From positions 7,211-71,210 of IMG/VR virus record IMGVR_UViG_3300046538_000109: a stretch of DNA of 64,000 bases; one strand, written 5' to 3'. This document shows, piece after piece, positions 1-61,073 of the stretch (within the stretch, counting starts at the first letter, position 1; each line of letters starts with the position of its first letter). The DNA is from a virus. The position numbers and the translations under genes were made by a program. A model generated the notes under the pieces. That model saw only the letters and a program-made list of their open reading frames with translations. It did not search any database and was not told the origin of the DNA.

Positions 1-11
1 CGGCCAATGCC

Positions 12-3000
12 GTGCAGGCCGCAGCCACGGCGCAGGCGGCCGCCAGCGCACCCGCAGCAGCAGCCAGCGCACCAGCCGCCGCCCAGTCAGCGCTGCCGTC
101 GATCGCGCAAATCGACGCCCGGATGGCCGAACTGGTCGCGATCGGGCAAGGCTCGCTGGCGAGCAGCACCACTGACGCTGCCGGCAACAAGGTCAAAGTG
201 CCGGGCGTGCCCGGGCGCCGCCTGACGCACGAGGAAATTACGGAATACAACAGCCTGGAAGCGGCGCGCAGGCAGCGCGCCGCCATCCCGGCCGACCAGC
301 AGGCCGAATTCACGGCGCTGCTGGCGGCCGAGGAAGCCGAGAATAACAAGAAGTTCGAACCGGCCAAGCTGGCGGCCGAGCAGGCGCGCGCCGAGGCCGA
401 AGCACGCCGCGCCGCCGCCGAAGAGGCGCAGCAGCAGGCCGCCCAGAAAGCGCGGGACGACGCCGAGCACGCGCAGATCGCCTCCATGGTCAACGCCGAC
501 GAGCAGTTGCGCCAGCAGACGGCCAAGGTGCGCCAGCAGCAGGATCTGGACGACATCGCCACCCGCGTTGCGCGCGATAACGCCGCCCGTGCGGAAGTGA
601 ACCGCGCAGGCCTGCGCGACGACGTGCTGGCCGACGATTCGATCCCGGCTGACGGTAAGAAATCCGCGTTCGCGGCAGCGCTCAAGCGCGAAGGCTACCG
701 CAGCACCGAACTGACCGAGGCCGACCACCACGAAATCGACGCCGCGACCGCGCCGGTACCGAGTCTGCCCAATGAGCTGGTCGACGCCGTGCCCGAGCGC
801 AAAGCCAGCGCCCCGGCGGCCGCACCTGGCGCGCCGAACACGGACGCCGTCGACGCCGCGATCGCCGCCGGCATGCGCCTGAAAACGGCGAACGGCGCCG
901 TGCTGCACAAGCCAGGTTCGAGCAAGATTTTCAAACTGAGCACCGCCCAGCGCGCGCACTACCTCGAGCGCATGGCCACCCCGGCCGCCGCGCCGGCGCC
1001 AGCAGCGCCGAACGTAGCCGAAGCCGACGACGCGCTGTACGCCGAAGCGGAGGCATTCGTTCGCACCACCAATGACGCATCGGCCGCCAAACTCCAGCAG
1101 CAATTCAAAATCGGCTACAACCGCGCCCAGCGCTTGCTGGAGAAAATGCATGCCGCAGGCTTGGTTTCGCCAATGACCTCGGCGGGGGCGCGCACCGTCA
1201 CGGCGCCGGCCCCAGCTGATGCGCAGCCGAGCGCCGCCGCCCAGGCATTCGACGCGGCCGCCCAGCAAGCGGCTACCAGCCCGCAGAACGACCTGCCGGA
1301 GCCGACCGCAGCCCAGAAGGAAGCCGGCAACTACAAGGTTGGCCGAGCCAAGTTGCACGGCCTGGACCTGTCGATCGAGAACCCGGCCGGGTCCACCCGT
1401 AAGGGCGTGGACAAGTCCGGTACGCCGTGGGAAACCACGATGCAGCACCACTACGGCTACATTCGCGGCACCGTTGGCGCCGACAAGGACCACATCGACA
1501 CCTTCATCGGGAAGAACCTCGACAGCGACAAGGTGTTCGTGGTCGACCAGATCCACCCGGACAGCGGCAAGTTCGATGAGCATAAGGTCATGCTCGGCTT
1601 CAATTCGCTGGAAGAGGCGCGCGCCGCCTACCAGGCGAACTATGACGCCAACTGGACCGGCGGCCGCGCTATCACCGAAACGACCGTCGACGGCTTCAAG
1701 AGCTGGCTGGCCAGCGGCAAGACCAAGAAGCCATTCGCCGCGCCGCGCAACTCGGCGGCTGCACCGACCGCGCCGGCGGCGGCCGCCGCCCCATCGGCGC
1801 CCCAGTTGACCAAGATCGAGCTGAACAAGATGACGGTCAAGGATATGACCAACGACCAGCTGCTGCAGGCAAAGGAAGTATTCAAAGGCCAGTCCCGCGA
1901 GCCGAAGATCGACAGGGAAATTGCGGCGCGCGACATTGCCCCGGCGGCCGATCGCATCGTGGCCGATGAACTGGTGGTGCCGAAGCAAGCGGCGCCGGAT
2001 GCGCGCGAGCGCGCCCGGACCCTGGCCGACTTGGCCGCCAATGCCGGCCATGCGGTCGACATCGACGGCCACTTTAAGCCGGGTGTGTACGGGACGGCAG
2101 AGCAACCGTTGAAATTCGTCTCCGGCATGACGGCCCCGGGCGACTTCACCAGGCTGTTCAGCAACGGGAAGAACGTCGGCATTTCCATGCTGGAACTGTC
2201 GAAGGTGTCCGTCCCCCGGATCGCTGAGCAGCTGGCCAAGGCCGAAGGCGCCCATCTGTTCGTGGATTCCGGCGCGTTTTCCATCCACATGAGCAATGTG
2301 CGCGAGAAAGAGGCGGCAGAGCGCGAGTTGCGCGAGGTCGCCGAGGCGGCGAAACTGGACCATGCCGCCCTGTTTGACCGATATGAGGATCTGTCGCGTG
2401 CGATCAGCGTCGCGAGCGACGGCACGGCCAACGGCCGCGCGCTCTTCGTCATGCCCGACATTGTGGGCGATCAGGCCGGCTCCCTGGCGCTGGTCCAGCG
2501 GTATGCCAGCGAGATCAACAGCTACGGCGCCAGTGCGATCGTGCCCCTGCAGGGCGGCGAACTTACGCTGACCCAGGCATACGAACAGATGATGCGCCAC
2601 CTGGGCATGGATCCGGCAGGCGACATTTCGCCGCTGATCGGGATCCCATCGCAAGCCGAGGCAGTATCGAACGACGAATTCACCGACCTGCTGCGCAAGC
2701 ATGGCGATCGCATCCATGGCGTGCATATTCTGGGCGCGCTGTCCGACCAGCGCCTGCAGCCGCGGCTGAATGCGATGATCGCAGCGGGCTATGACTTCAA
2801 TGTGTCGGCTGACGCCAACCGCGTGCGCTCCCTGACTTCCAAGAGCCGCCCCCGTAAGGAAGCGGTCAAGGCCGTGCTGAATTCTGACACCGCAGACGGC
2901 GCGCCGATGCCGCGCGTTGTGCGCGACGACCAGCGCCCGGAGCCGGCCGAGCCGGTGAGCGCACTCAAGCAGCGCGCGCGCGCGGCCGAGACGGTGGAGC

Positions 3001-6000
3001 CGAACGAGCCAGCCCAGCTGGGCGTGCATGCCAACGCGACCGCGCCGGAGCACGTTGTTCTGGGTGTGGATGACCGCGAGCTGGGCCAGGTTGTCGAGGA
3101 ATTCAACGACGCCCAGGCTGAAATGATGCAGGGCGCACACGCCATCTCCAACATCTTCCAGCCACCGACGAAGCGCGAAGTGGTGCGCCTCGAGGACAAG
3201 GCCCGGGCAACCGGCAAGCTGTGGGACAAGAAAGAGGTCCAGGCGTACAACAAGAATCTGGCCGCGCGCGAGGTGCTGGAAAAGGAAAATCAGCCGATCC
3301 CCGCTGAACTGGCCAAGGTGATCGCCGATTTTGAAGCGGTGTACCTGCCGCACGCCGCCCGGCTCGAGAAAGAAGCCAAGGCCGAAATCGGCAAATGGAA
3401 GAACCACGCGCAGGCGCAGGGTGACGACCCAGCAACCCGCCGCGCTAACGGCCGCAAGATCGTGCTGTCGCTGTTCGATCTCTCCGGTGAATGGTCGCGC
3501 CCATGGGAAGAGGCCGGCTATCAGGTGTACCGCTTCGACATTCAGGACGACCCGACCGTGGGCGACGTGAATAATTTCTCGTCCGAGTTCTTCGGCGACT
3601 GGTTCGGCGACTTCGACGGACTGGATATCCATGCCGTCCTGGCTGCCACGCCCTGCACCGACTTTGCCGTGTCCGGCGCGCGCCACTTCGCCGCCAAAGA
3701 CAAGGACGGCCGCACGGTTTCCAGCGTCAAGCTGGTGCACCAGACCCTGCGCGTGATCGAGTATTTCAAGCCGTCGGTGTGGGCGATCGAAAACCCGGTC
3801 GGTCGCATCGAGAAGCTGGGCGGCCTGCCACCATGGCGCCTGTCGTTCGACCCGAATCACCTGGGCGACTCGTACACCAAGAAAACCCTGCTGTGGGGCC
3901 GCTTCAACGCGGATCTGCCGGTCGCGCCGGTCGAGCCGACCGAAGGCAGCAAGATGCACCGGCTGTACGGCGGCAAGAGCATGGCGACCAAGAACGCCCG
4001 CAGCGAGACGCCCAAGGGCTTTTCCTACGGCTTCTTCATGGCCAACAACGTGGCCGACCATCCCGCCATGGCGCTCGCCAACAAGTTCGACCGGCTGGAC
4101 CGGGCGCTGATCGAGCAGGCGATGGCCGCCGGCGTGACCGAGGAGCAGATCACCGAGGCGGTCGAGGACTACTATTACATGGATCAGGACGACGACGCGG
4201 CCAACGCCGCCGTGCGCGACCTGATCGCGGAGGCCGCGCCGGATCCTGAGCCTGCGCCGACCAAGCCGAAGGCGCGGCAGGAGCCCGCCAAGAAGAAGGG
4301 CACCAAGCAGGCCAGCGCGCCGCAGCCGGCTCCAGCAACCGCCATGGCGGCGGCGAAGTCGGGGCAAGACTTCGGCCAGAAGGCGCGCGACGTGGTCAAC
4401 ATGCTTCCACAGATCACGACCTTCGAGCAGGTGGCCACGGCCGAAAACCTGCTGTTCGATCTGGCCTACGAGATGGAGCGAGCCAAGGACCAGTTGGCGC
4501 CGCAGGTTCGCGCGGCGGCCGATTCGGTGCGCGTCTTCAAGATGATCAACACCGGCGACAAGAGCTATGCGCGCGAAGGGGAGGGCGTGCGTCGCACCCT
4601 CGAAAACGTGCTCGAGCAGCATCCGCCGGCGGCGAAGGTGGAAGAAAACGCGCCGGCAAAAGTCAATCTGGGTTCGGCTGCGACCGGCAGCGTGCTGAAC
4701 GCAGAAGATGGCACGCTGTACCGCATTGAAGGCATCGACATCGGCGCAAACAAGATCCGCACCACCCGCAATCCGGACATGGGATCCGAACGCGTCGTAC
4801 TGATGGACCAGGGCCGCTATGATCGCCTGGCGGCCGAAGATGCCAGCGTGCGCGAAGCCTCGGTGAAGGCGGCGGACAGCGTGCGCAAAACCACGCCGGC
4901 GGCGCAGCCAGCCGCCGACCTTACCGGCCTGGACCAGCGCATTGCCGAAGTCGAGCAGCACCTGGCCACGACGCGCCAAAGCCAGAAGGACGCCGAGAAG
5001 AACGGCAACGCATGGACGTGGGATAAGAAGGTGGCCGAGTGGGAGAAAACCCTGGCCGCTTACCAGGAGGCGCGCGAGCGTCTGCTGAACCCGCCGCCGC
5101 CGTCGCAGTTCGCCGGCAACAAGCTGTTCACCTCCGACGCGGTGGAGAAGGCCCGCGCCCGCATGAAGTCGAAGCTGAGTCAGCTCAATTCCGGCATGGA
5201 CCCTGAGCTGATGATGGACGGCATCACCATCGCCGGCGCTTATATAGAGTCGGGGGTGCGCTCGTTCGCGGCATTCTCGAAGGCCATGGTGGGCGACCTG
5301 GGCGAAGCCGTGCGGCCATACCTGCGCAGCTTCTACGAGGGCGTGCGCCATTACCCGGGCCTGGACGCGGCCGGCATGAACTCGTCCGCCGAGATCGACG
5401 CGATGGAGCAGGCCAATACCGCGCCGCACACCCAGGCGTCGCCCATCAAGAATGACGCGATCGGCGAAACCGTCAAGGCGAAGCCATCGCGCGCCAAGGC
5501 GCCCGCCGACACGCTGCTGCGCGACGACTGGGGCGTGAGCCACATCGATGGATACGCAGAACTCCCCGGCGGGGCGAACGAGCAGACCGACTACGGCCTG
5601 CGCGGCGGGCTGAAAGACGCCTTCCTCAAGGATGCGCAGAATTACCTGCGTAAGGTATCGCTCGAGCTGCAGGCCCAGGGTTTTGTGCCCTACACGGCGG
5701 ACAACGGCAAACCGCTCAAGGTTGTCTCGGTCAACGAGTCGGGCACGGCCGGGTCCGGCGATATCTCGCTGTATGCCTACCACCCGGAAAAGCAGCATGG
5801 GATCTACCTGCATATCGGCGACACGGCGATCCGGGGCATGGTGCCGACCACGAAGTCCGGTATCGCCCTGATGATGCGCGTGGGCCACACGGGCGACCGC
5901 ACCGGCACCCAGGACCACAACCGCTGGATGCCGGTCAACCTGTCGGCGGTCGACCTGGCCGAGCAGGCGGCAAAAGCCGTGCATGCGGCCGCGCTCGCCC

Positions 6001-12000: not shown

Positions 12001-15000
12001 TCCCTGAGATCGCCGATGTCCAATACAACTTCGCCAACAACCGCTTCGAGCGCGTTTCACCCGTTCGCTCATCTGCCGACGAGTTACTGGCTGACGAATC
12101 CGCTGCGGGAGAACACGCTGCTGGCGCGCGGACTGGATCCGGCGACGCTCGAGGCGCTGTCGGACGAGGATCTGACGGCGCAAATGAAGGCGATGGGCAG
12201 CTCGGCCGAGTGGATGCAGTTGCTTTCACAGACACGGATTTTAAAGCTGTTGCACAATCGGTTCGAGACGCTTATGACGCTCTCTTTCCATCCCGTCGAG
12301 GAGCGTTTACGCCTCCGCTTGGCGTGTCTGATCTTAAGAGAGCGGCGCTTGTCGGTACCGTTTTACGCGAAGAGGGATCAGGAGCAGGGCGAGCGACACT
12401 GGATCACGTTTCAAACCGGCTGCTACAACGAGTAAGCCCGCAGCTCGACTCCGTTCTCTACAGCCGTGACGCGGAATACTTCCGCGATGACGGCAATTTC
12501 CTTCCTGCGATGCCTGCCGGCGTCGACGTCGGCGCCGCCGCGCCGCTCGAACTGAGCGGCCGCGAACTGCTGGACGCCAAGAAATCGACCGAGCAGCTGA
12601 ACCGCCAGCTGGCGAAGGCCGGCATGGAGCCGGTGCGCGCGCTGCGCGTGGCGCCGAACGCGAATTTCGCGCTGGCCCGCCAAATTGGCGAAGCGCTGGG
12701 CATCACGGTCAATTTCGTCAGTCGGAACCCGGAGTTCGAGGGCGTGGCGTACGATGGCATTGCCTACCTGGCTGACGGCATGCGCAACGCCGAGCTGGCG
12801 ATCGCCGGCCACGAGACGCTGCACGCGCTCGAGCAGGGCAACCCGGAGCTGGGCGCCAAGTTGCGCACCCAGATCCGCGCCTACCTCAAGGATGGCGTGG
12901 TCGAGGATCGCCAGGCGCGCGAGTATGCGGCAAACGGGCTGCAGGACGTCTCGGTCGAGCAGGCCGAGGCCGAAGTGATCGCCGATATCAATGGCGCGAT
13001 GTGGATGGATCCGGTGTTCTGGGCGGATCTGGCGAAGGCTGATCGCTCGCTGTTCCGCTCCGTGGCCTACAAATTCATGGAAGTGGCCGCCAAGGCCATC
13101 AAGAGCCTGCGCGGTTCGCGCTTTGACGTGAGCGCCCTGGTGCGCGACGTGGAAGCGGTGCGCGCGATCATGGTGGCCACCTGGGCCGAGCATGGCGCCA
13201 GCCGCGATGCCGCCGAACAGGCCAAACCGGCCGTGTTCAGCACGTCGAACCTGTCAGTCCCATTGCTTTTGCAGGATCGACTCACCGACACGGCGATAGC
13301 CGAAGAAGTGGAGAAACGCATCGGCCAGTTTGCGCACCAGCCCGCGATCCGGATCCGTGACAGCGCGGTTGGGGAACTCCCCGACGCGACAAGCGATGAC
13401 CGGGTGGCCGGGGCGGTCCACGATGGCGCCATCTACCTGTTCCGTGACCAGCTGCCCACCCGGATGGCGGTCCAGCGGACCCTGTTTCACGAGTTGTTCC
13501 ATTACGGGCTCCGACGTTTCCTGACAAAAGACGAGTATATCACCCACATGCTGGACCTCGCCGGGCGTGACGCCGACGTGGACCGGGATGCGCGCCGCTG
13601 GGCGGAAACCCCGGACGGGCGCCGCGCGGCGGCCTATGGTGGCGAAGACTATGCGCACGCCCGCGGCGTCGACGAGCTGCTCGCACAGATCGCCGAAACC
13701 AATGCAGGCGTCTTCCTCGACCAGTCGGTGCAGGCGCGCGTGCTGCGCACCGTGCAGGGCTGGCTGGCCAGCCTGGCACAGGCCTTCGGCATGAAGGCGA
13801 CGGCTGCTTACTTGCGCGGCATGAAAAGCGACGAGGCACGCTCCACGATTCGCTCGATGTTCGCCAAGCTGGAGCAAGACGCGCCGGCGTCGGTCGAGCC
13901 GTGGGGCCCCGCAGCCGACACGGCGTTCCGCCGCGACGGCGTCACGGCAACTCCCGCCTTCAAGGCGTGGTTCGGCGACAGCAAGGTGGTCGACGCCGAC
14001 GGCAAGCCGCTGGTGGTCTATCACGGCACCAACAAGGATATTTCCAAGTTCAAGGGCTCGCATATCTGGGTAACGGATGAGGCGGAACTGGCCAATGAAT
14101 TTGTGGCCGGCGGCCGCAGAAAGATGGGGGATAAGCCCGGGCGCGGCTCGGCCGTCTACCCGGTCTATGCGGCAATACAAAATCCCGTTGATCTGCGTGG
14201 ACTGGATCTGGCATCGGACGTCACCGTGCCGGAAATTCTCAAGCGCGCGGGCATTGCGCCCACCGACGCCATTCTGGAGAAGATTGCCCGGGAAAGCTTG
14301 GACAGTGGCTATGCCGGTGTTTCCGCAAGCCTTGGCGACCCGGTTCAATACCTCGTTGAAAAATACAAGGCCGGCAGTCGCTTGTCGAACCTGTTGGATA
14401 ACCCAGCGTTGAAGTCCGCGCTGGAAGCCGGCGGAATTGATGGCATCCACCTGACGGAGAAATATACCAAGGGCACGCGCAAGGCCCCAATATCGGCCCA
14501 GGCCGATACATATGCCGCCTTCCATCCGGCGCAGATCAAATCGGCCACCGGCAACAATGGCGAATTCGACCCCGGCAATGCCGGCATCGCCTTCAGCCGC
14601 GCCGGCCTGGGCGAGACGCTGGCCAGCGCCGCCAACAACGTCGCGGCGCTGCGCCTGCCGGCCGGTTACCTGGTGGGCGACCTGTTCAACCAGTCCGGCA
14701 AACTGAGCTGGTGGCACAAGACCATCGGCACCATGGAAAACCTGGCCAAGCGCCGGCCGGCGTTCGCCCGCGTCTACGCCGCGGTGCAGAGCTTCCTCGG
14801 CGACGTGTCGCGCTATGCGGTCCAGTCGGCGGATCTGGCGCCAACCCTGCTGCCAAAACTGGAAGACATCGCCGATATCATCGGCAAGAACCGCAAGAAG
14901 CCGCTGACCGGCGAGGATACCAAGGCGATCGGCGGGCCGATCTTCGAGGGCACGCTGGTATGGGCGCGTGACGCCAATGACGAGCCTGTCAAGATCGCCG

Positions 15001-17540
15001 AACTGGAAACTTGGGCCGATACGTTGACGGCCGGACAGAAAGCGCAGATCCTGCTGCAGAAAGGGATCATCGACGATGCGCAGCACCGCTCCTGGCTGAA
15101 CAGTCCGCTCAACCTCTACGAGGCGACCATCAACGTCCGGTTCAAAGCGACCCAGCTCAAGGCCGGCGTGGTGTGGTCCGATGCCGAACTGCGCCGCCTG
15201 TTCAACCTGAACGACGCGCAGATCGGGCTGTACCGCGAATTCCGCGCCGCGATCGACAAGAGCCTGACCAGCCTGACGATCAGTGAAATGATCAAGTTGG
15301 GCGGCAAGGACGCCAAGAGCATGCTGGATCAGGCGATGGCGGCGCCGGATCTGGCGTCGGCCGCTGAACTTCTGCGCGACCACTTCATCGAACTGGCGCG
15401 CATGGATCCGGAAAGGACGGATATGCACCTCGATACCGCCAAGCAGATTATGAATCTGGCGGACAAGGGGGAAGACCTGATGGACCGGGGTTATGCGCCG
15501 CTGTCACGCTTCGGCAAATACACGGTGTACGTGCAGGACGTAAATGAGGATGGGGAGGCCGAGCAGGTCTATTTCGGCATGTTTGAAACCCAGCACGAGG
15601 CCTCACGGATGGCGCGCCAGATGGCGGCCGAGCACCCGCAGGCGCAGGTTTCGCACGGCACCGTGTCCGAGGACGCCTACAAGCTGTTCGCCGGCGTGTC
15701 GCCGGAAACGATCGAGCTCTTCGGCTCCATGGTCGGACTGGACAGCCAGGCGGACCCCGCTACCAGCGAGGTCTACCAGGCGTATCTGAAACTGGCGAAG
15801 AACAATCGAAGCGCGATGAAGCGCATGATTCAGCGCAAGGGCATCGCCGGTTTCTCGGAGGACGCGGGCCGCGTGCTGGCCGGATTCATCTACAGCAATG
15901 CCCGCCTCACGGCCGGCAACGCGCACCTGGGCGAGATCGATGAGGCGATCACCGAGATCCCGAAACAGCAGGGCGAACTGACGGACGCCGCGATGCAGCT
16001 GCGCGAGCACATCCGCAATCCGGAGGGCGGCGGCAGCAAGTTGGGCGGCCTGATGTTCGCGCAGTTCCTGGGCGGATCGGTCGCCTCGGCCATGGTCAAC
16101 TTGACGCAGCCGTTTACCATGACGCTGCCTTACCTGAGCCAATGGGGCGGGCTGGCGAAAGCCGGCACGCGCCTGGGCGCCGCCATCAAGGACGCCGGCA
16201 AGAAGGAAACCGGCGATGCCGGCCTCGATGCCGCGCTGCGGTGGGCATCCGACGAGGGCATCGTGGCGCCGCAGGAGGTGCACTACCTGCAGGCGCAGGC
16301 GGCCGGCAAGGGCTCGCTGCAGTCGGGCGACGGCACGCCAGCCGGCAACGCGCGCGCGCACCTGAACAACGCCATGACCAAGGTGTCGCTGGGCTGGGGC
16401 AAGTTGTTCGCCATGGCCGAGCTGGCCAACCGTCGCGTGACGTTCATCGCGGCCTACCGCACGGCCGTGGCCGAGGGCATCGCCAACCCGGCGGAATTCG
16501 CCCGCGAGGCGGTGTCGCAGACTCAGGGCACCTACAACTCAGGCAACAAACCGAAGTGGGCGCGCGGCGCGATCGGTGGACTTTTATTGACCTTCAAGCA
16601 GTATTCGGTCGGCTACCTCGAGCTGCTATCGCGCATGGCCTTCGCCGGCGAGCCGGGTTCGCCAGAGCGGGCGGCCGGCCGCCGCGCCGCGCTGTACATG
16701 CTCGCGGTCCTGGTGCTGATGTCGGGCGCCGACGGCCTGCCGTTCGAGCAGGATCTGGAGGACGCGATCGACGGACTGATGCAGCGTTTGGGCTACAACT
16801 TCTCGAGCAAGCGCAAGAAGCAGGAAATTCTGACCGACGTGCTGGGCCAGGGCGGCGCCGACTTCGCGCTCAAGGGGATCTCGAGCATGCCGGGTATGCC
16901 GGTCGACGTCGCCGGCCGCTTTGGCATGGGCAACCTGCTGCCGGGCACCGGCCTGCTGACCAAGAAGGCGTCGTACACGTCGGATCTGGGCGAGCTGGCC
17001 GGGCCTGCGGGCGATTTGGTCAAGCGCGCATTCCTCGCCAGCGGCAAGGCGCTGGGCGGCGACCTGGCCGGCGCCGCGCTCGATATCTCCCCGGCATCCG
17101 TGCGCAATGTGGCCAAGGGCGCCGATATGCTGGCCACCGGCGCCTACCACGACGCGCGCGGCTACAAGGTCAACGACACGACCGGCCTGGAAGGCATAAT
17201 GAAGATCGTCGGCTTCCAGCCCAACAGCACGTCCAACATTCAGGATGCCAAGGGGCAGGCGCTGGACATGATCCAGCAGAACCGCTTGCGCTCGTCGGAG
17301 ATCACCGAGCACTGGGCGCAGGGGCTGGCCAACGGCGACACGGCGATGGTCGCAGAAGCCCGGGAGCAGCGCGACGACTGGAACAAGAAGAACCCGGACA
17401 CCCCGATCCGGGTCAACATGCCGGCCGTGATCCAGCGCGTACGCGCGATGAAACAGGACGCGATCAACCGGACGCAGAAGACCGCGCCGGCGGCACTGAA
17501 GGCATCGGTGCGTAACGAGCTGGCGGAGGTTCGGGGATAA
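12..17540 (+). CDS. Giant multidomain 'polyvalent' protein, DarB-like antirestriction/virion-injected type; >5842 aa, frame open upstream of window so N-terminus missing
   Basis: Single frame without stop for 17.5 kb; host-like high GC3 over the checked segments (N-terminal coil, C5-MTase); recognisable motifs in order (see findings): FtsK-gamma-like wHTH (~1020-1175), PPase-like DxDxID (~1320-1660), C5-MTase (3445-4050), N6-MTase (6480-7260), SNF2 helicase (8760-10560), two HExxH (12809-12823, 13488-13502), YHGT ART-like (14020-14031), hydrophobic C-term (~15950-17000). The track's GTG at 12 is not the true start. Confidence 0.7.
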   Translation: MQAAATAQAAASAPAAAASAPAAAQSALPSIAQIDARMAELVAIGQGSLASSTTDAAGNKVKVPGVPGRRLTHEEITEYNSLEAARRQRAAIPADQQAEFTALLAAEEAENNKKFEPAKLAAEQARAEAEARRAAAEEAQQQAAQKARDDAEHAQIASMVNADEQLRQQTAKVRQQQDLDDIATRVARDNAARAEVNRAGLRDDVLADDSIPADGKKSAFAAALKREGYRSTELTEADHHEIDAATAPVPSLPNELVDAVPERKASAPAAAPGAPNTDAVDAAIAAGMRLKTANGAVLHKPGSSKIFKLSTAQRAHYLERMATPAAAPAPAAPNVAEADDALYAEAEAFVRTTNDASAAKLQQQFKIGYNRAQRLLEKMHAAGLVSPMTSAGARTVTAPAPADAQPSAAAQAFDAAAQQAATSPQNDLPEPTAAQKEAGNYKVGRAKLHGLDLSIENPAGSTRKGVDKSGTPWETTMQHHYGYIRGTVGADKDHIDTFIGKNLDSDKVFVVDQIHPDSGKFDEHKVMLGFNSLEEARAAYQANYDANWTGGRAITETTVDGFKSWLASGKTKKPFAAPRNSAAAPTAPAAAAAPSAPQLTKIELNKMTVKDMTNDQLLQAKEVFKGQSREPKIDREIAARDIAPAADRIVADELVVPKQAAPDARERARTLADLAANAGHAVDIDGHFKPGVYGTAEQPLKFVSGMTAPGDFTRLFSNGKNVGISMLELSKVSVPRIAEQLAKAEGAHLFVDSGAFSIHMSNVREKEAAERELREVAEAAKLDHAALFDRYEDLSRAISVASDGTANGRALFVMPDIVGDQAGSLALVQRYASEINSYGASAIVPLQGGELTLTQAYEQMMRHLGMDPAGDISPLIGIPSQAEAVSNDEFTDLLRKHGDRIHGVHILGALSDQRLQPRLNAMIAAGYDFNVSADANRVRSLTSKSRPRKEAVKAVLNSDTADGAPMPRVVRDDQRPEPAEPVSALKQRARAAETVEPNEPAQLGVHANATAPEHVVLGVDDRELGQVVEEFNDAQAEMMQGAHAISNIFQPPTKREVVRLEDKARATGKLWDKKEVQAYNKNLAAREVLEKENQPIPAELAKVIADFEAVYLPHAARLEKEAKAEIGKWKNHAQAQGDDPATRRANGRKIVLSLFDLSGEWSRPWEEAGYQVYRFDIQDDPTVGDVNNFSSEFFGDWFGDFDGLDIHAVLAATPCTDFAVSGARHFAAKDKDGRTVSSVKLVHQTLRVIEYFKPSVWAIENPVGRIEKLGGLPPWRLSFDPNHLGDSYTKKTLLWGRFNADLPVAPVEPTEGSKMHRLYGGKSMATKNARSETPKGFSYGFFMANNVADHPAMALANKFDRLDRALIEQAMAAGVTEEQITEAVEDYYYMDQDDDAANAAVRDLIAEAAPDPEPAPTKPKARQEPAKKKGTKQASAPQPAPATAMAAAKSGQDFGQKARDVVNMLPQITTFEQVATAENLLFDLAYEMERAKDQLAPQVRAAADSVRVFKMINTGDKSYAREGEGVRRTLENVLEQHPPAAKVEENAPAKVNLGSAATGSVLNAEDGTLYRIEGIDIGANKIRTTRNPDMGSERVVLMDQGRYDRLAAEDASVREASVKAADSVRKTTPAAQPAADLTGLDQRIAEVEQHLATTRQSQKDAEKNGNAWTWDKKVAEWEKTLAAYQEARERLLNPPPPSQFAGNKLFTSDAVEKARARMKSKLSQLNSGMDPELMMDGITIAGAYIESGVRSFAAFSKAMVGDLGEAVRPYLRSFYEGVRHYPGLDAAGMNSSAEIDAMEQANTAPHTQASPIKNDAIGETVKAKPSRAKAPADTLLRDDWGVSHIDGYAELPGGANEQTDYGLRGGLKDAFLKDAQNYLRKVSLELQAQGFVPYTADNGKPLKVVSVNESGTAGSGDISLYAYHPEKQHGIYLHIGDTAIRGMVPTTKSGIALMMRVGHTGDRTGTQDHNRWMPVNLSAVDLAEQAAKAVHAAALARSRVAQSPTINHTETIPAPVAEPKEQNNDSTPAASAPAIDSPVAEGQRPAGSHAVTRGAEQPRAGAGRDDARSVRERGGRDQVADDAREDLGDRPGDDAVPDRAPDAVAGHSKSVSADFRPDLGGLTREGSWFDTAKRNIDLIELALKIESEGRPATAAEQAQLAKYVGFGASAIRNKLFPIPPSYAKQQDPNRLIWPSLIGEASWRALAERMEALPAAWQRSVLQSSQYAHYTSEGIIRSAWSAMQRLGFTGGKVFEPGMGIGSFSMLMPDAVRKTSRYTGVEFDGPTALIARLLSPEQNMLHDDFIKRKFPKDYFDVAIGNPPFSQTQIFADPDYEKHGFMLHDFFFAKSIDRVRPGGLLAFVTSKGTMDKQTDKARKYLAARADLVGAIRLPSTAFEDNAGTSVVTDVIFLRKRLEDEAPAGAAWANVATVDTKDGPVVINEYFAKHPEMVLGQNRISGGADDMGRRINSNGRGAAQYTVVSYDQTPAELDAKFAAAVERLPQNVYSVLGQSTESVQRETAKVDFDPSVKREGVVYQAKDGAIMRVEHGVGVPLASGMKMTESDKAWFASYIGLRDLVNEARLAQATDGKWESSLKKLNKAYDAFRKEHGPINDFRVQVRKSTDEDGKEVETESRIFKNRRRFREDYDAAILTQLETINEAGDIVKSAFLQGRTIGKPITREIKTVGDALAVSLDETGRLNLADVGRRIGLNREETIEALGNQVFQAPAGDWQLADEYLSGDVVSKLEEAEQAARLDESLYRNVEALKAVQPEKLGPSQISAKLGASWIPEAHVNEFAGEIDAGAVTFDPKTETWQVDGGNLRSQRRAGAEYGTAARSPSELLESALNSRSVKILHGKGAGELAGKTDQEATTAANEMLKKIKDKFKGWVWTDAERASELVESYNRRYNNIAPRRFDGSHLTLPGVSLRYTLHPHQKNGIWRQVQTGDTYLAHAVGAGKTIEMIAGGMEQKRLGLIKKPMYVVPNHMLEQFSNEFMELYPLANIMVADDENFSAERRKAFIANATLNNPDAVIITHDAFQRIGVKEESVAPIRDEILADLEIELSETAKDNGARVRRSQLEQQIEAVTQRFDRIISAGGKDSTLKFEDIGVDFIFADEAHVFRKLDFHTSQQIKGIDPNGSKRALDMYVKTRWLQQQRPGRAMVFASGTPVTNTMGELYTIMRFFAPKEMDRAGISTFDAWARQFGEVAPALEPNAAGKYELIERFAKFDNVPELMSRVRQFMDVLTSEHLGALVKRPDLIGGKPNLNIVQPSAALEHYMKTVLGPRIEISKKWKPTKDEPSNPDPIVSIITDGRFAAIDPRFFGGELGEEGSIITEMGDKVAAAYHAGKNNVYQDKNGKDEPIKGSTQIVFYNMGFGEQSQKNRGFNARAAFTKRLTDGGIPRDQIAWFDDANTDAKKEAVFKDMRSGKLRVLIGSAKKMGTGVNVQKRLAVLHYQDPPWFPADVEQPHGRIIRQGNQNGEVAIEWYTTKGTYQSTMWQMVGRKQRFIDQAFSGDKSLRSMEDMGEASLFEQAAAVASGDPRAIQLAGLKQEVERFERLQAAHASEQINVRSALRSAEWQVESAQKRIVSYGAAFKAIGERFYSFTSGKVGNRLFDKIGEFGQAIKDAFNEVAADAVLGGPVQDRQIATLDTLPITVDSEFDKTGKNPSGELSLYVNVGSQALHISTAPAFGADVDAVGLGRRMVNSVNGISSDLSRAKSDLASGQTDLVRLRKKQGAPFEYQQEMAEKYGDLKRLEEELRLEGLAKDEPALPIVINADGSSTEDSAASAGEQGQELAFSRARIDSDDPLVNIFSKIAQDDAAFRLPTSTGKTLSAVMADMAGLSVNEFYGAGVEEDPKMPVDRVWEVSAPSGEHAWVYRNNKNKEIWLDISNWKEGKLGAEVYQAVATFAKNTGHTFIGDPQGLSDKALYRRTEHMISSALRHGTTEHLAPHSRQREDIATATGTPMRPIQWREGDHGHNLREMLVSSYTNILQVFPEIADVQYNFANNRFERVSPVRSSADELLADESAAGEHAAGARTGSGDARGAVGRGSDGANEGDGQLGRVDAVAFTDTDFKAVAQSVRDAYDALFPSRRGAFTPPLGVSDLKRAALVGTVLREEGSGAGRATLDHVSNRLLQRVSPQLDSVLYSRDAEYFRDDGNFLPAMPAGVDVGAAAPLELSGRELLDAKKSTEQLNRQLAKAGMEPVRALRVAPNANFALARQIGEALGITVNFVSRNPEFEGVAYDGIAYLADGMRNAELAIAGHETLHALEQGNPELGAKLRTQIRAYLKDGVVEDRQAREYAANGLQDVSVEQAEAEVIADINGAMWMDPVFWADLAKADRSLFRSVAYKFMEVAAKAIKSLRGSRFDVSALVRDVEAVRAIMVATWAEHGASRDAAEQAKPAVFSTSNLSVPLLLQDRLTDTAIAEEVEKRIGQFAHQPAIRIRDSAVGELPDATSDDRVAGAVHDGAIYLFRDQLPTRMAVQRTLFHELFHYGLRRFLTKDEYITHMLDLAGRDADVDRDARRWAETPDGRRAAAYGGEDYAHARGVDELLAQIAETNAGVFLDQSVQARVLRTVQGWLASLAQAFGMKATAAYLRGMKSDEARSTIRSMFAKLEQDAPASVEPWGPAADTAFRRDGVTATPAFKAWFGDSKVVDADGKPLVVYHGTNKDISKFKGSHIWVTDEAELANEFVAGGRRKMGDKPGRGSAVYPVYAAIQNPVDLRGLDLASDVTVPEILKRAGIAPTDAILEKIARESLDSGYAGVSASLGDPVQYLVEKYKAGSRLSNLLDNPALKSALEAGGIDGIHLTEKYTKGTRKAPISAQADTYAAFHPAQIKSATGNNGEFDPGNAGIAFSRAGLGETLASAANNVAALRLPAGYLVGDLFNQSGKLSWWHKTIGTMENLAKRRPAFARVYAAVQSFLGDVSRYAVQSADLAPTLLPKLEDIADIIGKNRKKPLTGEDTKAIGGPIFEGTLVWARDANDEPVKIAELETWADTLTAGQKAQILLQKGIIDDAQHRSWLNSPLNLYEATINVRFKATQLKAGVVWSDAELRRLFNLNDAQIGLYREFRAAIDKSLTSLTISEMIKLGGKDAKSMLDQAMAAPDLASAAELLRDHFIELARMDPERTDMHLDTAKQIMNLADKGEDLMDRGYAPLSRFGKYTVYVQDVNEDGEAEQVYFGMFETQHEASRMARQMAAEHPQAQVSHGTVSEDAYKLFAGVSPETIELFGSMVGLDSQADPATSEVYQAYLKLAKNNRSAMKRMIQRKGIAGFSEDAGRVLAGFIYSNARLTAGNAHLGEIDEAITEIPKQQGELTDAAMQLREHIRNPEGGGSKLGGLMFAQFLGGSVASAMVNLTQPFTMTLPYLSQWGGLAKAGTRLGAAIKDAGKKETGDAGLDAALRWASDEGIVAPQEVHYLQAQAAGKGSLQSGDGTPAGNARAHLNNAMTKVSLGWGKLFAMAELANRRVTFIAAYRTAVAEGIANPAEFAREAVSQTQGTYNSGNKPKWARGAIGGLLLTFKQYSVGYLELLSRMAFAGEPGSPERAAGRRAALYMLAVLVLMSGADGLPFEQDLEDAIDGLMQRLGYNFSSKRKKQEILTDVLGQGGADFALKGISSMPGMPVDVAGRFGMGNLLPGTGLLTKKASYTSDLGELAGPAGDLVKRAFLASGKALGGDLAGAALDISPASVRNVAKGADMLATGAYHDARGYKVNDTTGLEGIMKIVGFQPNSTSNIQDAKGQALDMIQQNRLRSSEITEHWAQGLANGDTAMVAEAREQRDDWNKKNPDTPIRVNMPAVIQRVRAMKQDAINRTQKTAPAALKASVRNELAEVRG
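6082..6378 (+). CDS. 98-aa acidic hypothetical protein encoded in an alternative frame inside the giant ORF's low-complexity linker
   Basis: Perfect SD GAAGGAG (6068-6074) 7 nt before ATG 6082; GC3 ~85% in this frame vs ~45% in the giant frame over the same 297 nt; translation is well-composed (MIPPLQQVRLRSIRRWLKDNDQQAATLSLEALNSRALELDETMLEAFESGEDEIKSQMMREKTWGTDQGMTRFPTERLTLWQDIASQFLPTSALISED) whereas the giant frame reads Ala/Gly/Arg/Asp/Pro low-complexity here; preceded by a short AT-richer stretch (6020-6081). Confidence 0.4.
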   Translation: MIPPLQQVRLRSIRRWLKDNDQQAATLSLEALNSRALELDETMLEAFESGEDEIKSQMMREKTWGTDQGMTRFPTERLTLWQDIASQFLPTSALISED

Positions 17541-25933: not shown

Positions 25934-26869
25934 TCAACTATTGCTCTCCTGCTGAATTAACGTCCGCAGGAACGATTCTATTTTGTCGCGATGCGCTTCG
26001 AGATCCAAATTGCGGTCTGCCAAGCGAATAGTAATATCGCGCTTCTTCACTATTGTAACGTATGCAGTATTGCCGGAAGAGTTTGAAATGATGCGATTGG
26101 GCACATCTTTTTTTTCGTCGTTCAGCCTGGAAATCTGCTGAGCCACCCAGGCCTTCAAGCCATTTTGATCGGCGCCTTCTTTGAATCGCTTGACGCCCTC
26201 CACGATTGTCGCCGTATGTTCTGGGTGGGCCTTCCACAGCGCTTGGATATTGGCGGCGGCGGACACGCCAAACAGGCCGGGATCATCATCCAGCAGCGCA
26301 AGAATAGGCGAGGGCAGTTCCAGCATCGACAGGCACTTGGACACGAAGCCCTGAGACTTGCCGACTTGTACTGCCAGCTCGGACTGGGTATTCGCCAGCT
26401 TCTCATCCAGTCGGCGGCGGAAGCTGCAGCCGTACTCGTAGTCGTGCGGCGGAGTGCCGGTGTTATCGATCAGGACAGCGGCAGCGGCTTCCTTGTTGGA
26501 CAGGGCGACAATCAGCACGCGCGCCTCTTCCCATCCAATGCTCAGGGCCGAGTACTTGCGGGTATGCCCTTTGACAACTTCTGCGCGCCCTGGTGTGACA
26601 ATCCGCACCTCGATGGGGTCAACCTGGCGCGTGGCCAGCATGGACTGGCCAATGGCATCTACGCGCAGTGGATCAATCTTGAGGCGCGTCTGGTAGGGGC
26701 TATCATCCAGTAGGTCCAGGCGCATCATCATTTCGGTGCCCGGGACCGGGGCTGTTGGGCCGCTCGGCGCATCCTGTGGCGCGAATGCCGCAGATGGAGT
26801 GATGCCGGTGGCCGGCACGACACGCCCGGATTGGATTAATCCGGATACCTTGAATCCTGGCTTGCTCAC
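25934..26869 (-). CDS. parB: ParB-family partition protein
   Basis: 311 aa; ParB/Srx-like N-terminal region and central HTH (ELAVQVGKSQGFVSKCLSML); translationally coupled to the upstream parA (ATGA-type overlap 26866-26869). Confidence 0.75.
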   Translation of the reverse strand: MSKPGFKVSGLIQSGRVVPATGITPSAAFAPQDAPSGPTAPVPGTEMMMRLDLLDDSPYQTRLKIDPLRVDAIGQSMLATRQVDPIEVRIVTPGRAEVVKGHTRKYSALSIGWEEARVLIVALSNKEAAAAVLIDNTGTPPHDYEYGCSFRRRLDEKLANTQSELAVQVGKSQGFVSKCLSMLELPSPILALLDDDPGLFGVSAAANIQALWKAHPEHTATIVEGVKRFKEGADQNGLKAWVAQQISRLNDEKKDVPNRIISNSSGNTAYVTIVKKRDITIRLADRNLDLEAHRDKIESFLRTLIQQESNS

Positions 26870-28089: not shown

Positions 28090-28200
28090 CGCTGCCTAGA
28101 ATCCTATAGGCAGTTGCTCCATCGGCCGTGCCTCGCAGGAAGCCACCTGCAGTTGCAAGGTGGTCCAGCCGTTGCGCATCCGTCAGCTCGGGGATGGCAG

Positions 28201-48803: not shown

Positions 48804-48827
48804 CGCGCGGCGCACCATCAACAACAA

Positions 48828-48852
48828 GCCATCCCCCGGGGTGGCTTTTTTT
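48828..48852 (+). terminator. Hairpin + T7 run between terL and portal (partial terminator/attenuator)
   Basis: GCCATCCCCC-GGGGTGGC then TTTTTTT, immediately followed by ATGAGCAACCAC. Confidence 0.45.
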
Positions 48853-51530: not shown

Positions 51531-51554
51531 ATGAGCCAACCACAGGAGATCCAC

Positions 51555-61016: not shown

Positions 61017-61032
61017 CGGCCGAGTCACCAGT

Positions 61033-61058: not shown

Positions 61059-61073
61059 TTATCTCCGGGCACC

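What the first reader, a model, noticed from the sequence alone, without database searches (positions are those of the whole stretch)
12..17540. 17.5-kb uninterrupted frame encoding a >5800-aa 'polyvalent' protein with an unusual domain assortment
The frame has no stop for 17529 nt and is still open at the window start. Along it I can place, in order: an FtsK-gamma-like wHTH (KLQQQFKIGYNRAQRLLEKMHAAGLVS); a family-I inorganic-pyrophosphatase-like segment (ENPAGSTRKG...HHYGYIRGT...GADKDHIDTFIG, compare PPase EIPRGSRNKYE...NYGFIPQT...DGDPLDVLV); a C5-cytosine MTase (LSLFDLSG / PCTDFAVSG / AIENPVG); an N6-adenine MTase (EPGMGIGSF / NPPF) fused to an SNF2/DEAH helicase (GAGKT, FADEAH, HGRIIRQGNQ), which is the phage P1 DarB architecture; two HExxH modules with similar flanks ((Y/H)DG(I/A)xYL...HExxH); a diphtheria-toxin-like YHGT segment; and a hydrophobic C-terminal ~350 aa that resembles ejection/internal-virion proteins. 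Polyvalent virion-injected proteins are known, but the combination of two different DNA MTases, helicase, PPase-like, ART-like and twin peptidase modules in one >5.8k-aa polypeptide is exceptional. The unassigned stretches (e.g. aa ~600-1000 and ~1460-2090) may hide further effector domains.
Basis: partly seen in the sequence, partly recalled or inferred. Interest (0 to 1): 0.8.

Follow-up and report, generated by a model that had tools for sequence, protein, structure and literature searches.

The report
Giant phage polyvalent protein with hidden gene
The 17.5-kb frame is real and encodes most of a roughly 6,000-residue multi-enzyme protein that a Bcep22-like temperate phage probably packs into its virion and injects with its DNA; proteins of this kind are already known, but this one also contains a widespread undescribed enzyme-like domain and a small conserved gene hidden in a second reading frame.

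Summary
Frame 3..17540 (+) has 5,846 sense codons, no stop, and is open at the window start. A 5,555-aa Massilia homologue places about 390-415 further residues upstream.

- FtsK-gamma, InPase and a C5-MTase.
- An N6-MTase plus SNF2 helicase, collinear with P1 DarB.
- LPD37, ART-PolyVal and a C-terminal PLxRFG domain.

The two HExxH modules match no peptidase family. The gene lies in a phage-plasmid-like element (ParAB, integrases, terminase, portal, capsid) that is syntenic with a Massilia plasmid and related to Burkholderia Lessievirus phages. The 4,515-aa homologue in phage JC1 was found in virions by mass spectrometry.

This is therefore a new member of the known polyvalent / DarB-like class. 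It is not exceptional: metagenomic relatives with the same module order reach 7,235 aa.

Two new points emerged:
- A 98-codon ORF in the +1 frame (nt 6082-6378) lies inside the linker before the MTase. It has its own Shine-Dalgarno and ATG and is under purifying selection, while the main frame there evolves neutrally. It is conserved in 41 phage records and also occurs as a free-standing prophage gene.

The parts
3..17540 (+). Giant ORF, 5' end cut by the window (5,846 sense codons plus stop). aa numbering used here: aa1 = nt 12.
   Evidence: collinear homologues
1023..1202 (+). FtsK-gamma winged helix (aa 338-397)
   Evidence: Pfam PF09397, 8e-18
1311..1709 (+). InPase, the type-I pyrophosphatase-like OB-fold domain of polyvalent proteins (aa 434-566)
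   Evidence: Pfam PF18823, 4e-58; described in PMC5512222
2103..2861 (+). Undescribed TIM-barrel domain (aa ~698-950; HMM envelope aa 641-1023). Invariant residues: D752 (FVDSGAF), P815-D816 (VMPDxVGDQ), Q847, G849, P879, H905xLG908, D934, R939.
3444..4061 (+). C5-cytosine DNA methyltransferase (aa 1145-1350; PCTDF at 1214, ENPVG at 1260)
   Evidence: Pfam PF00145 1e-4 at its cutoff; PHROG 757 6e-41
4626..5468 (+). Conserved region of unknown function shared with Bcep22 gp75 (aa 1539-1819, 37% identity)
   Evidence: no Pfam or PDB hit
6099..6341 (+). R/G/D/A-rich main-frame linker (aa ~2030-2110). Codon-position GC is inverted (0.93/0.6/0.35) and main-frame dN/dS is ~1.1.
6082..6378 (+). Embedded ORF 'X', 98 codons plus stop, in the +1 frame relative to the giant ORF. 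Shine-Dalgarno AGGAG at 6070-6074, ATG at 6082.
6273..11300 (+). DarB-like core (aa 2088-3763), 46% identical to Bcep22 gp75 and collinear with P1 DarB
6669..7271 (+). N6-adenine DNA methyltransferase (EPGMGIGSF; NPPF at aa 2319)
   Evidence: Pfam N6_Mtase 9e-6, Eco57I 4e-7; BLASTP to P1 DarB 3e-19
8802..10751 (+). SNF2/DEAH helicase (GAGKT aa 2955, DEAH 3116; Helicase_C aa ~3413-3476)
   Evidence: Pfam SNF2-rel_dom, ResIII, Helicase_C; P1 DarB 3e-21 and 3e-12
11451..12143 (+). LPD37, large polyvalent-protein-associated domain 37 (aa 3814-4044)
   Evidence: Pfam PF18853, 3e-60
12039..12416 (+). Second low-GC3 linker (aa ~4010-4135) with a weak candidate +1-frame ORF 'Y'
   Evidence: only the Massilia homologue was found
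12549..13196 (+). HExxH module 1 (HETLH aa 4267-4271), seen only in Massilia relatives
13197..13946 (+). HExxH module 2 (HELFH aa 4493-4497), a recurrent module found in 7 other proteins with other polyvalent domains
   Evidence: model core pLDDT 70-84 shows three strands plus the HExxH helix
13992..14567 (+). ART-PolyVal ADP-ribosyltransferase (aa 4661-4852; YHGT at 4670)
   Evidence: Pfam PF18760, 1e-16
15489..17492 (+). PLxRFG C-terminal domain (PLSRFG at aa 5163). It holds the only two hydrophobic 19-mers of the protein: aa 5344-5362 (nt 16041-16097) and aa 5558-5578 (nt 16683-16745).
   Evidence: NCBIfam NF032893 1e-186; PHROGs 21376 and 11358; hydropathy
25937..28095 (-). Context: ParB and ParA partition genes (34% and 66% identical to those of the Massilia plasmid)
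47262..53748 (+). Context: large terminase, portal and major capsid genes of the same element
61017..62666 (+). Context: homologue of Bcep22 gp67 'internal virion protein' (40% identity). The virion module runs off the window end towards the start of the giant gene.

Best explanation
The frame is the 3' ~94% of one gene. It encodes a polyvalent, DarB-like internal virion protein of about 6,200 residues. The host element is a temperate Bcep22-like (Lessievirus-related) podophage or phage-plasmid of a Massilia-like betaproteobacterium.

Shown here:
- One continuous coding frame.
- A string of at least 12 modules in this order: FtsK-gamma DNA-binding wHTH, InPase, a TIM-barrel enzyme-like domain, C5-cytosine MTase, a conserved unknown region, N6-adenine MTase, SNF2 helicase, LPD37, two HExxH modules, ART-PolyVal, and a PLxRFG C-terminal domain with two hydrophobic helices.
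- The gene sits at the end of a virion-gene block.
- The homologue in phage JC1 is physically present in virions.

Inferred mechanism:
- A few copies are packed in the capsid and ejected with or ahead of the DNA. The PLxRFG tail probably serves packaging and envelope passage.
- Once inside the cell, the enzymes act before any phage gene is expressed. The two methyltransferases and the helicase protect the entering DNA from restriction, as P1 DarB does. The ART modifies a host target. InPase removes pyrophosphate or a nucleotide signal.
- The HExxH modules may cut the chain into separate effectors.

The linker before the N6-MTase is not a conventional linker. Its nucleotide sequence is constrained by a small embedded gene (X) read in the +1 frame. 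The giant protein's own residues there are a disordered by-product that only has to stay free of stops.
For: Continuity and coding signature of the frame.

Domain profiles.

Homologues: collinear similarity to P1 DarB, 46% identity over ~1,700 aa to Bcep22 gp75, and 75% identity over ~4,050 aa to the 5,555-aa Massilia protein.

Phage context: synteny with an 87-kb circular Massilia plasmid that carries an N4-gp56-type capsid, tail fibre, endolysin, ParAB and integrases. Portal and capsid Pfam hits occur in the window.

Virion association: JC1 gp69 (4,515 aa) gave 51 unique peptides in CsCl-purified virions (PMC9144972).

Class already described: InPase, ART, LPD, FtsK-gamma, N6A-MTase and SNF2 are named as recurrent polyvalent-protein modules, and phage versions are predicted to be packaged (PMC5512222).

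The architecture recurs in giants of up to 7,235 aa.

Embedded gene X:
- Shine-Dalgarno plus ATG are conserved in Burkholderia phages, Ralstonia phages, the window and two metagenome contigs (L020/L021); the Massilia SD is weaker and L022 has the ATG but no clear SD.
- dN/dS is 0.15-0.81 in the X frame and 0.86-8.6 in the main frame, over 12 pairs.
- Controls elsewhere in the gene give 0.05-0.41 for the main frame and above 1.2 for off-frames.
- The main frame has 0 stops in 12 embedded copies, against 2 stops in each of 3 free-standing copies.
Against: - No experiment on this element exists. Packaging, ejection, anti-restriction and processing are all inferred from homologues.
- The true start of the gene is outside the window.
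- The Massilia N-terminus has no recognisable domain, so the lytic-transglycosylase head annotated in DC1 and CSP3 may be absent here.
- No homologues of the P1 DarA/Hdf/DdrA packaging partners are reported in Lessieviruses (PMC9144972), so the DarB analogy may not cover packaging.
- The peptidase assignment rests on the HExxH motif alone.
- The C5-MTase Pfam score is only at the family cutoff.
Confidence: 0.85

Rival explanations
1. The long frame is an artefact. It would be several adjacent genes joined by assembly or sequencing errors, or an off-frame that stays open by chance in GC-rich DNA.
For: Long shadow ORFs do occur here: a 2,081-aa antisense ORF at 87..6332 and off-frame open stretches of up to 523 codons. 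Two linkers have an inverted codon signature.
Against: The coding signature and purifying selection (main-frame dN/dS 0.05-0.41) hold along the frame. The same continuous ORF exists in Massilia, five Burkholderia phages (Bcep22, BcepIL02, BcepMigl, DC1, JC1) and the Ralstonia phages whose records annotate it (CSP3's product annotation matches). The main frame has no stop across X in 12 embedded copies but has stops in the free-standing copies.
Confidence: 0.02
2. It is a polyvalent protein of a conjugative plasmid or ICE, delivered through a type IV secretion system, rather than a virion protein.
For: About 40% of known polyvalent proteins are in conjugative elements (PMC5512222). The element has ParAB and its closest relative is filed as a plasmid. 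One free-standing TIM-barrel homologue lies among Toprim, ParB-HTH and AAA_34/ResIII helicase genes with no virion genes visible, which would fit a plasmid or ICE.
Against: The Massilia plasmid is typed non-mobilizable. The window carries terminase, portal, capsid and internal-virion-protein homologues. No ArdC-N domain or T4SS gene was seen. The homologue JC1 gp69 is in virions.
Confidence: 0.03
3. Its main role is structural. It would be a T7 gp16-like internal core or ejection protein that builds the trans-envelope channel, with enzymatic modules that are secondary or decayed.
For: It lies at the end of the virion module, next to internal-virion-protein homologues. The hydrophobic helices occur only in the conserved C-terminal PLxRFG domain. 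Relatives are annotated with a lytic-transglycosylase head.
Against: Catalytic motifs are intact: PC and ENV, NPPF, GAGKT and DEAH, and an InPase match at 4e-58. Enzymatic regions are under strong purifying selection, with dN/dS 0.05-0.09. This reading is compatible with the main explanation rather than excluding it.
Confidence: 0.25
4. ORF X is not an independent gene. Its coding-like signature would reflect ribosomal frameshifting into and out of the +1 frame, or a truncated frameshift product ending at X's stop, with the internal Shine-Dalgarno acting as a frameshift stimulator.
For: SD-like sequences stimulate frameshifting in prfB and dnaX (general knowledge). Selection clearly acts on the +1 frame.
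Against: An ATG lies 6-10 nt after the SD in the ten phage-derived copies examined (for the window, Massilia, Bcep22 and JC1; for DC1, CSP3, Gerry, GP4 and Gervaise, with L020/L021 assumed from the gene calls); L022 keeps the ATG but has no clear SD. Gene callers independently called the same 88-113-aa ORF 51 times. Free-standing copies with no giant gene around them exist next to integrases.
Confidence: 0.05

Closest known systems
Polyvalent proteins of phages and conjugative elements (Iyer, Burroughs, Anand, de Souza, Aravind 2017, PMC5512222)
   Same: One polypeptide strings together many effector domains from the same repertoire: InPase, ART-PolyVal, LPD37, FtsK-gamma, N6A-MTase, SNF2 helicase and HExxH modules. 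It is phage-encoded and predicted to be delivered with the DNA.
   Different: It contains a TIM-barrel domain that is not in Pfam; 'TIM barrel' does not occur in that paper's text. At 5,846 aa or more it is larger than its relatives in isolated phages (Bcep22 4,602 aa), though not larger than metagenomic ones.
Lessievirus gp75-type 'DarB-like antirestriction' protein (Bcep22 gp75, JC1 gp69; PMC9144972)
   Same: 46% identity over the MTase-helicase core. The C-terminal region is homologous (PHROG 10089). The gene is in the same position at the end of the virion module. The same embedded +1 ORF lies upstream of the MTase.
   Different: In the pairwise comparisons and the module search, the window protein carries FtsK-gamma, InPase, TIM barrel, C5-MTase, LPD37, both HExxH modules and ART, none of which aligned to Bcep22 or JC1. 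The host element is a ParAB phage-plasmid-like replicon.
Phage P1 DarB
   Same: N6-adenine MTase followed by an SF2 helicase in one chain. Three collinear blocks are 25-29% identical, at 3e-19, 3e-21 and 3e-12. DarB is virion-packaged and protects incoming DNA from type I restriction (P1 record note; PMC9144972).
   Different: DarB is 2,255 aa with no other modules and needs DarA, Hdf and DdrA for incorporation. No such partners are known in Lessieviruses.
Massilia violaceinigra B2 plasmid protein WP_099883082.1 ('PLxRFG domain-containing protein', 5,555 aa)
   Same: It is the closest relative: 75% identity over ~4,050 aa, the same module order, and a syntenic replicon.
   Different: It lacks the TIM-barrel module (window aa 643-996 has no counterpart) and differs in aa 1415-1786.
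tRNA/DNA-guanine transglycosylase superfamily (TGT, ArcTGT, DpdA, CBASS Cap10)

Membership tests
Polyvalent proteins (Iyer et al. 2017) | Several unrelated effector domains from the defined repertoire in one polypeptide | tested here: met
   PF18823 InPase, PF18853 LPD37, PF18760 ART-PolyVal, PF09397 FtsK_gamma, N6_Mtase, SNF2, C5 MTase
Polyvalent proteins (Iyer et al. 2017) | Encoded by a phage or conjugative element | tested here: met
   Terminase, portal, capsid and internal-virion-protein homologues plus ParAB and integrases in the window
Polyvalent proteins (Iyer et al. 2017) | Delivered into the recipient cell together with the DNA | not testable with these tools
   Only indirect evidence: JC1 gp69 is in purified virions (PMC9144972)
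P1 DarB | N6-adenine MTase followed by an SF2 helicase, with significant collinear similarity | tested here: met
   BLASTP at 3e-19, 3e-21 and 3e-12 in order
P1 DarB | Packaging depends on DarA, Hdf and DdrA | not tested
   No search for these partners was run here. The JC1 paper reports no homologues in Lessieviruses.
P1 DarB | Protects incoming DNA from type I restriction in cis | not testable with these tools
   Needs plating assays on restricting hosts
Lessievirus gp75-type giant virion protein | Homology across the MTase-helicase core and the C-terminal domain | tested here: met
   46% identity over aa 2088-3763. PHROG 10089 scores E=0 on the core and 1.3e-31 on the C-terminus.
Lessievirus gp75-type giant virion protein | N-terminal lytic transglycosylase head | not testable with these tools
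   The N-terminus is outside the window. The first 500 aa of the Massilia homologue have no Pfam hit.
TGT / DpdA / Cap10 superfamily (for aa 698-950) | TIM-barrel fold closest to TGT-family structures | tested here: inconclusive
TGT / DpdA / Cap10 superfamily (for aa 698-950) | Sequence or profile similarity to TGT | tested here: inconclusive
   There is no Pfam TGT hit. PHROG 887 scores E 0.011 on the DSGAF motif only. hhalign gives probability 5-6%.
TGT / DpdA / Cap10 superfamily (for aa 698-950) | Zinc site (CxCxxC...H) after the barrel | tested here: not met
   No Cys is among the positions conserved at 80% or more in 144 homologues. The TGT alignment has invariant C302, C304, C307 and H317/H333.
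Zincin metallopeptidase (e.g. MPTase-PolyVal) | HExxH motif | tested here: met
   aa 4267 and 4493. H324 and E325 of the tile are invariant in module-2 homologues.
Zincin metallopeptidase (e.g. MPTase-PolyVal) | Profile match to a peptidase family, or a zincin fold | tested here: not met
   No Pfam or PHROG hit at E<=1 and no PDB sequence hit. The model has pLDDT 50 and the fold search was meaningless.

The most novel reading that the evidence does not exclude
The giant gene is dual-coding. A ~100-codon gene (X, nt 6082-6378) with its own ribosome-binding site is translated in the +1 frame inside the linker that precedes the DarB-like methyltransferase. X is the frame under purifying selection there. 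The giant protein's residues over that stretch are a stop-free passenger. The arrangement is conserved across Burkholderia Lessieviruses, Ralstonia phages, the Massilia plasmid and metagenomic relatives, is annotated in none of the records examined, and X also exists as a free-standing prophage gene next to integrases. Separately, the TIM-barrel module would be a new transglycosylase-like effector family of injected phage proteins.
Probability: 0.7. Interest if true: 0.65.

Novelty: new member of a known kind. Interest (0 to 1): 0.5.

Why it matters
The giant protein itself extends a known class, so it mainly serves as a well-annotated and unusually module-rich example.

Two by-products could matter more:
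- A TIM-barrel domain with about 950 cluster representatives, many inside 4,000-7,000-aa injected proteins, has no family entry. It has an invariant Asp/Asp/Gln/His/Asp constellation. If it is a base-exchange enzyme like DpdA or Cap10, it would be a new kind of early-acting phage effector.
- The embedded gene X is a clean comparative case of same-strand overlapping genes in tailed phages. Two separate constraints are visible: purifying selection on one frame, and stop avoidance on the other. It is directly testable in cultured phages (Bcep22, JC1, DC1, Ralstonia phages) with a mutation that is silent in the main frame.
- X also shows that annotation pipelines miss conserved genes inside very long ORFs.

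Tried and rejected
- An exact 50-mer from the window was not found in viral, genome or metagenome contig collections. The contig could therefore not be extended and the true start was not recovered.
- Pfam at E<=1 and PHROGs on the unassigned tiles gave nothing for aa 1-340, 1350-2250, 2420-2930, 3480-3820, 4040-4660 and 4850-5160, apart from family-internal PHROGs.
- PDB sequence searches of the TIM tile, the HExxH tile, aa 1415-2040, aa 2088-3813 and aa 4856-5842 found nothing significant.
- A profile of the TIM family hit only family-II pyrophosphatases at E 0.006. The conserved motifs did not line up, so I treat this as chance.
- hhalign of the TIM family against E. coli Tgt and against a five-sequence TGT alignment gave probability 5-6%.
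- tblastn of the TIM tile found no copy in 50,697 phage records.
- The two HExxH modules are not detectably related to each other. Their AF2 model was poor and the Foldseek output was noise.
- I considered that the inverted codon signature at aa 2030-2110 meant a compensated frameshift or wrong frame. I rejected this because distant homologues align in the main frame and that frame is kept open.
- The second linker candidate, ORF Y, has only weak support: +1 dN/dS 0.64 against main-frame 0.99, no clear start codon, and no homologue beyond Massilia.
- X has no Pfam or PHROG family.
- No paper in the searchable library mentions an overlapping gene in DarB-like genes, or DpdA in polyvalent proteins, in this sense.
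Full report
OBSERVATION

Translating nt 12-17540 gives 5,842 sense codons and a single terminal stop. The three codons before nt 12 in the same frame are also sense codons, so the frame is open at the window start. With this base composition a stop is expected about every 36 codons. The chance of none in 5,843 codons is about 1e-70. Third-position GC is 0.75-0.91 along the frame, the coding signature of this 64% GC element, except at two short stretches discussed below.

WHAT THE PROTEIN IS MADE OF

Profile searches confirm the domains read by eye. Residue numbers take aa1 = nt 12.

| Module | Residues | Evidence |
|---|---|---|
| FtsK_gamma | 338-397 | 8e-18 |
| InPase PF18823 | 434-566 | 4e-58 |
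| C5 DNA methylase | 1145-1350 | Pfam 1e-4, at its cutoff; PHROG 757 6e-41 |
| N6_Mtase / Eco57I | ~2250-2415 | |
| SNF2 / ResIII | ~2931-3133 | |
| Helicase_C | ~3413-3476 | |
| LPD37 | 3814-4044 | 3e-60 |
| ART-PolyVal | 4661-4852 | 1e-16 |
| NCBIfam PLxRFG 'tail-700' | 5160-5827 | 1e-186 |

PHROG 10089, 'DarB-like antirestriction', covers the core with E = 0. A direct BLASTP against P1 DarB gives three collinear blocks: MTase 3e-19, helicase N-lobe 3e-21 and helicase C-lobe 3e-12. The whole protein has only two strongly hydrophobic 19-residue stretches, aa 5344-5362 and 5558-5578. Both lie in the PLxRFG domain.

The two HExxH modules (aa 4267 and 4493) are present but could not be assigned.
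- No Pfam or PHROG family matches at E<=1, and there is no PDB sequence hit.
- They are not significantly similar to each other.
- The AlphaFold model of aa 4170-4650 is poor, with mean pLDDT 50. Only ~90 residues around the second motif are confident, showing three strands followed by the HExxH helix.
- The fold search on that model returned noise.
- Module 2 is nevertheless a real recurrent unit. Seven other proteins carry it next to other polyvalent-protein domains, with the invariant block GAVhxGxIYLFRDQL...LFHELLHYGL.

CONTEXT AND RELATIVES

The nearest relative is an 87-kb circular 'plasmid' of Massilia violaceinigra B2. It carries an N4-gp56-type capsid gene, tail fibre, endolysin, ParAB, integrases and a 5,555-aa 'PLxRFG domain-containing protein'.

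The window is syntenic with it:
- ParA 26869-28095 (-) and ParB 25937-26971 (-).
- Integrases at 23009-24301 and 36212-37483.
- Large terminase 47262-48800, portal 48712-51213 and major capsid 52765-53748.
- A homologue of Bcep22 gp67 'internal virion protein' at 61017-62666.

The window protein aligns to the Massilia protein as follows:

| Window aa | Massilia aa |
|---|---|
| 30-642 | 416-988 |
| 997-1414 | 1006-1381 |
| 1787-5841 | 1548-5553 (75% identity) |

About 390-415 residues are therefore missing upstream, and the full protein should be about 6,200-6,250 aa.

More distant relatives are the 4,500-4,600-aa 'DarB-like' proteins of Burkholderia Lessievirus phages, at 46% identity over aa 2088-3763. 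JC1 gp69 was detected in CsCl-purified virions with 51 unique peptides (PMC9144972).

The class as a whole is the 'polyvalent proteins' of Iyer et al. 2017. That paper describes InPase, ART, LPDs, FtsK-gamma, N6A-MTase and SNF2 as recurrent modules and predicts that phage versions are packaged and injected (PMC5512222).

IS IT EXCEPTIONAL?

No. An exhaustive profile search seeded with one of its domains returned 150 listed relatives. Of these, 32 are 4,000 aa or longer and the largest is 7,235 aa. Searching those proteins with each module of the window protein shows the same order in several of them. For example, P0039 (7,099 aa) has InPase > C5-MTase > TIM > N6-MTase > SNF2 > PLxRFG, and P0067 (7,235 aa) has InPase > TIM > N6-MTase > SNF2 > ART > PLxRFG. 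The window protein is a large, module-rich member of a populous class.

A NEW DOMAIN IN THE 'UNASSIGNED' STRETCH

Window aa 643-996 has no counterpart in the Massilia protein. The word-indexed search found only 8 homologues. The exhaustive search found 951 cluster representatives, 167 of them at E<=1e-30. Some are free-standing proteins of about 350 aa and others are embedded in giants.

Conservation. Across 144 homologues the following are invariant or nearly so:
- D752 in FVDSGAF.
- P815-D816 in VMPDxVGDQ.
- Q847, G849 and P879.
- H905xLG908.
- D934 and R939.

Structure. The AlphaFold model has core pLDDT 85-95 and is a beta/alpha barrel.

Sequence-level tests are weak.
- PHROG 887 (queuine tRNA-ribosyltransferase) scores E 0.011 on the DSGAF motif only.
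- hhalign to Tgt aligns DSGAF with DSGGFQ, and MPD with the DEC region, at probability 5-6%.
- There is no Pfam or PDB profile hit.
- No conserved Cys zinc site is present.

I therefore call it a TIM-barrel enzyme-like domain. My estimate that it belongs to the transglycosylase superfamily is roughly even odds. It fails one defining feature of that superfamily, the zinc site.

Suggestive context:
- One free-standing copy directly follows a gene that fuses InPase to a PAPS-reductase-type PP-loop domain, and lies near LPD1, RelA/SpoT and helicase genes.
- Lessieviruses carry a PAPS-reductase gene two genes upstream of the giant gene.
- Cap10 works with a QueC-like PP-loop enzyme (bioRxiv 10.1101/2025.04.06.647259).
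- Half of the TIM-bearing giants also carry InPase.

The domain is absent from 50,697 phage records at tblastn level.

A GENE INSIDE THE GENE

The two stretches with low third-position GC were examined. At aa ~2030-2110, codon-position GC in the main frame is 0.93/0.6/0.35. This means the +1 frame has the normal coding pattern, and that frame is open for 167 codons.

The +1 frame holds an ATG at nt 6082, preceded by AGGAG at 6070-6074, giving a 98-codon ORF that ends at 6378. The same arrangement (SD, ATG, ~95-112 codons, +1 relative to the giant ORF, just upstream of the N6-MTase) is present in Bcep22, JC1, DC1, CSP3, three Ralstonia phages of two genera, and metagenome contigs; in the Massilia plasmid the SD is weaker (AGAG), and in contig L022 the ATG has no clear SD. 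tblastn of the Bcep22 version finds it in 41 phage records, in every case under the giant gene, which is labelled DarB-like in about half of the records and hypothetical or multidomain in the others. No record examined annotates it.

Selection.
- Between the window and Massilia, differences per 40 codons at main-frame positions 1/2/3 are 11/8/4 and 12/7/5, against a background of 4.3/3.1/13.4.
- Nei-Gojobori estimates over 12 pairs give dN/dS 0.15-0.81 in the X frame and 0.86-8.6 in the main frame.
- Control regions of the same gene give 0.05-0.41 for the main frame and above 1.2 for off-frames.

X as an independent gene.
- A profile of X sequences retrieved 51 independently called proteins of 88-113 aa.
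- Some are free-standing genes in prophages next to integrase genes, with no giant gene nearby.
- In those copies the frame equivalent to the giant ORF contains two stops. In all 12 embedded copies it contains none.
- In contig L022 the DarB-like gene appears to start only ~90 codons before X, so the overlap belongs to the DarB-like unit itself.

Conclusion. X is very likely a real gene. Over it, the giant protein's R/G/D-rich 'linker' is a passenger sequence kept free of stops.

The Burkholderia/Ralstonia type of X (motif KAPxxYxxMKADGTL) and the window/Massilia type are only ~21-24% identical. Their homology is inferred mainly from position. X has no family match and its function is unknown.

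The second linker (aa ~4010-4135) shows a weaker version of the same pattern: +1 dN/dS 0.64 against main-frame 0.99, with no clear start codon and no homologue outside Massilia. I leave it as a candidate.

MECHANISM

Shown here:
- A single frame.
- Intact catalytic motifs for two DNA methyltransferases and an SF2 helicase.
- An InPase and an ART domain.
- Strong purifying selection on the enzymatic core.
- A position at the end of a virion-gene block.
- Virion association of a homologue.

Inferred:
- The protein is packed in the head and ejected with the genome.
- The PLxRFG tail, with its two hydrophobic helices, serves packaging or envelope passage.
- The MTases and helicase protect incoming DNA, as DarB does.
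- ART and InPase act on host targets or nucleotide pools.
- The HExxH modules may process the chain.

None of these inferred steps can be tested with sequence tools.

VERDICT

The object is a new member of the known polyvalent / DarB-like class rather than an exceptional one. The added value is an undescribed TIM-barrel module family and a conserved, unannotated overlapping gene.

Noticed in passing
window 6082-6378 (+), +1 frame inside the giant ORF; SD at 6070-6074: A conserved embedded ORF X of 98 codons with its own SD and ATG. Purifying selection acts on the X frame while the main frame there evolves neutrally. It is present in 41 phage records under the giant (DarB-like) gene and unannotated in the nine records I inspected. 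Free-standing copies also occur next to integrases.
   Followed up: yes
window ~12039-12416 (+), +1 frame (aa ~4010-4135 of the giant ORF): A second linker with low third-position GC and a 203-codon open +1 frame that reads like a real protein and is 60% identical in Massilia. Selection evidence is weak (dN/dS 0.64 against 0.99), there is no clear start codon, and no other homologue was found.
   Followed up: partly
window 87-6332 (-): A 2,081-aa antisense ORF opposite the giant gene. Its codon-position GC is 0.82/0.47/0.69 and its product is rich in R, G, L, A and V. It looks like a shadow ORF of a GC3-rich gene, not a gene.
   Followed up: partly
L007 6199-9566 (metagenome contig SRR25260019_624); compare L004 25545-26273 (Bcep22 gp73): A free-standing copy of the TIM-barrel domain directly follows a gene fusing InPase to a PAPS-reductase-type PP-loop domain. 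Lessieviruses carry a PAPS-reductase gene two genes upstream of the giant gene. This resembles the QueC-like plus TGT-like pairing of CBASS Cap9/Cap10.
   Followed up: partly
window 21371-37483: The element has ParA/ParB partition genes and two tyrosine-integrase homologues alongside a full virion module. It may be a phage-plasmid that can also integrate. The closest relative is filed as a non-mobilizable plasmid.
   Followed up: partly
window 45909-45984 (+): A single tRNA-Asn (GTT) gene lies just upstream of the terminase region. The JC1 paper reports a tRNA-Ser in related Lessieviruses.
   Followed up: no
window 17592-18098 (-): A DUF4262 gene (Pfam 2e-32) on the opposite strand lies immediately after the giant gene. 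The Massilia plasmid has an H-NS gene in that position, and Lessieviruses have two small reverse-strand genes there.
   Followed up: no
profile of alignment A3 (window aa 698-950 family) against PDB: The only PDB sequences reached by the TIM-family profile are family-II (DHH) Mn-dependent pyrophosphatases (E 0.006-0.07). The conserved motifs do not align, so this is probably chance. It is curious given the frequent co-occurrence with InPase.
   Followed up: no
L023 26577-26975 (phage P1 record): The P1 record annotates iddB, an ORF lying inside ddrB on the opposite strand, in the dar operon region. This is another gene-within-a-gene annotated in an antirestriction locus.
   Followed up: no
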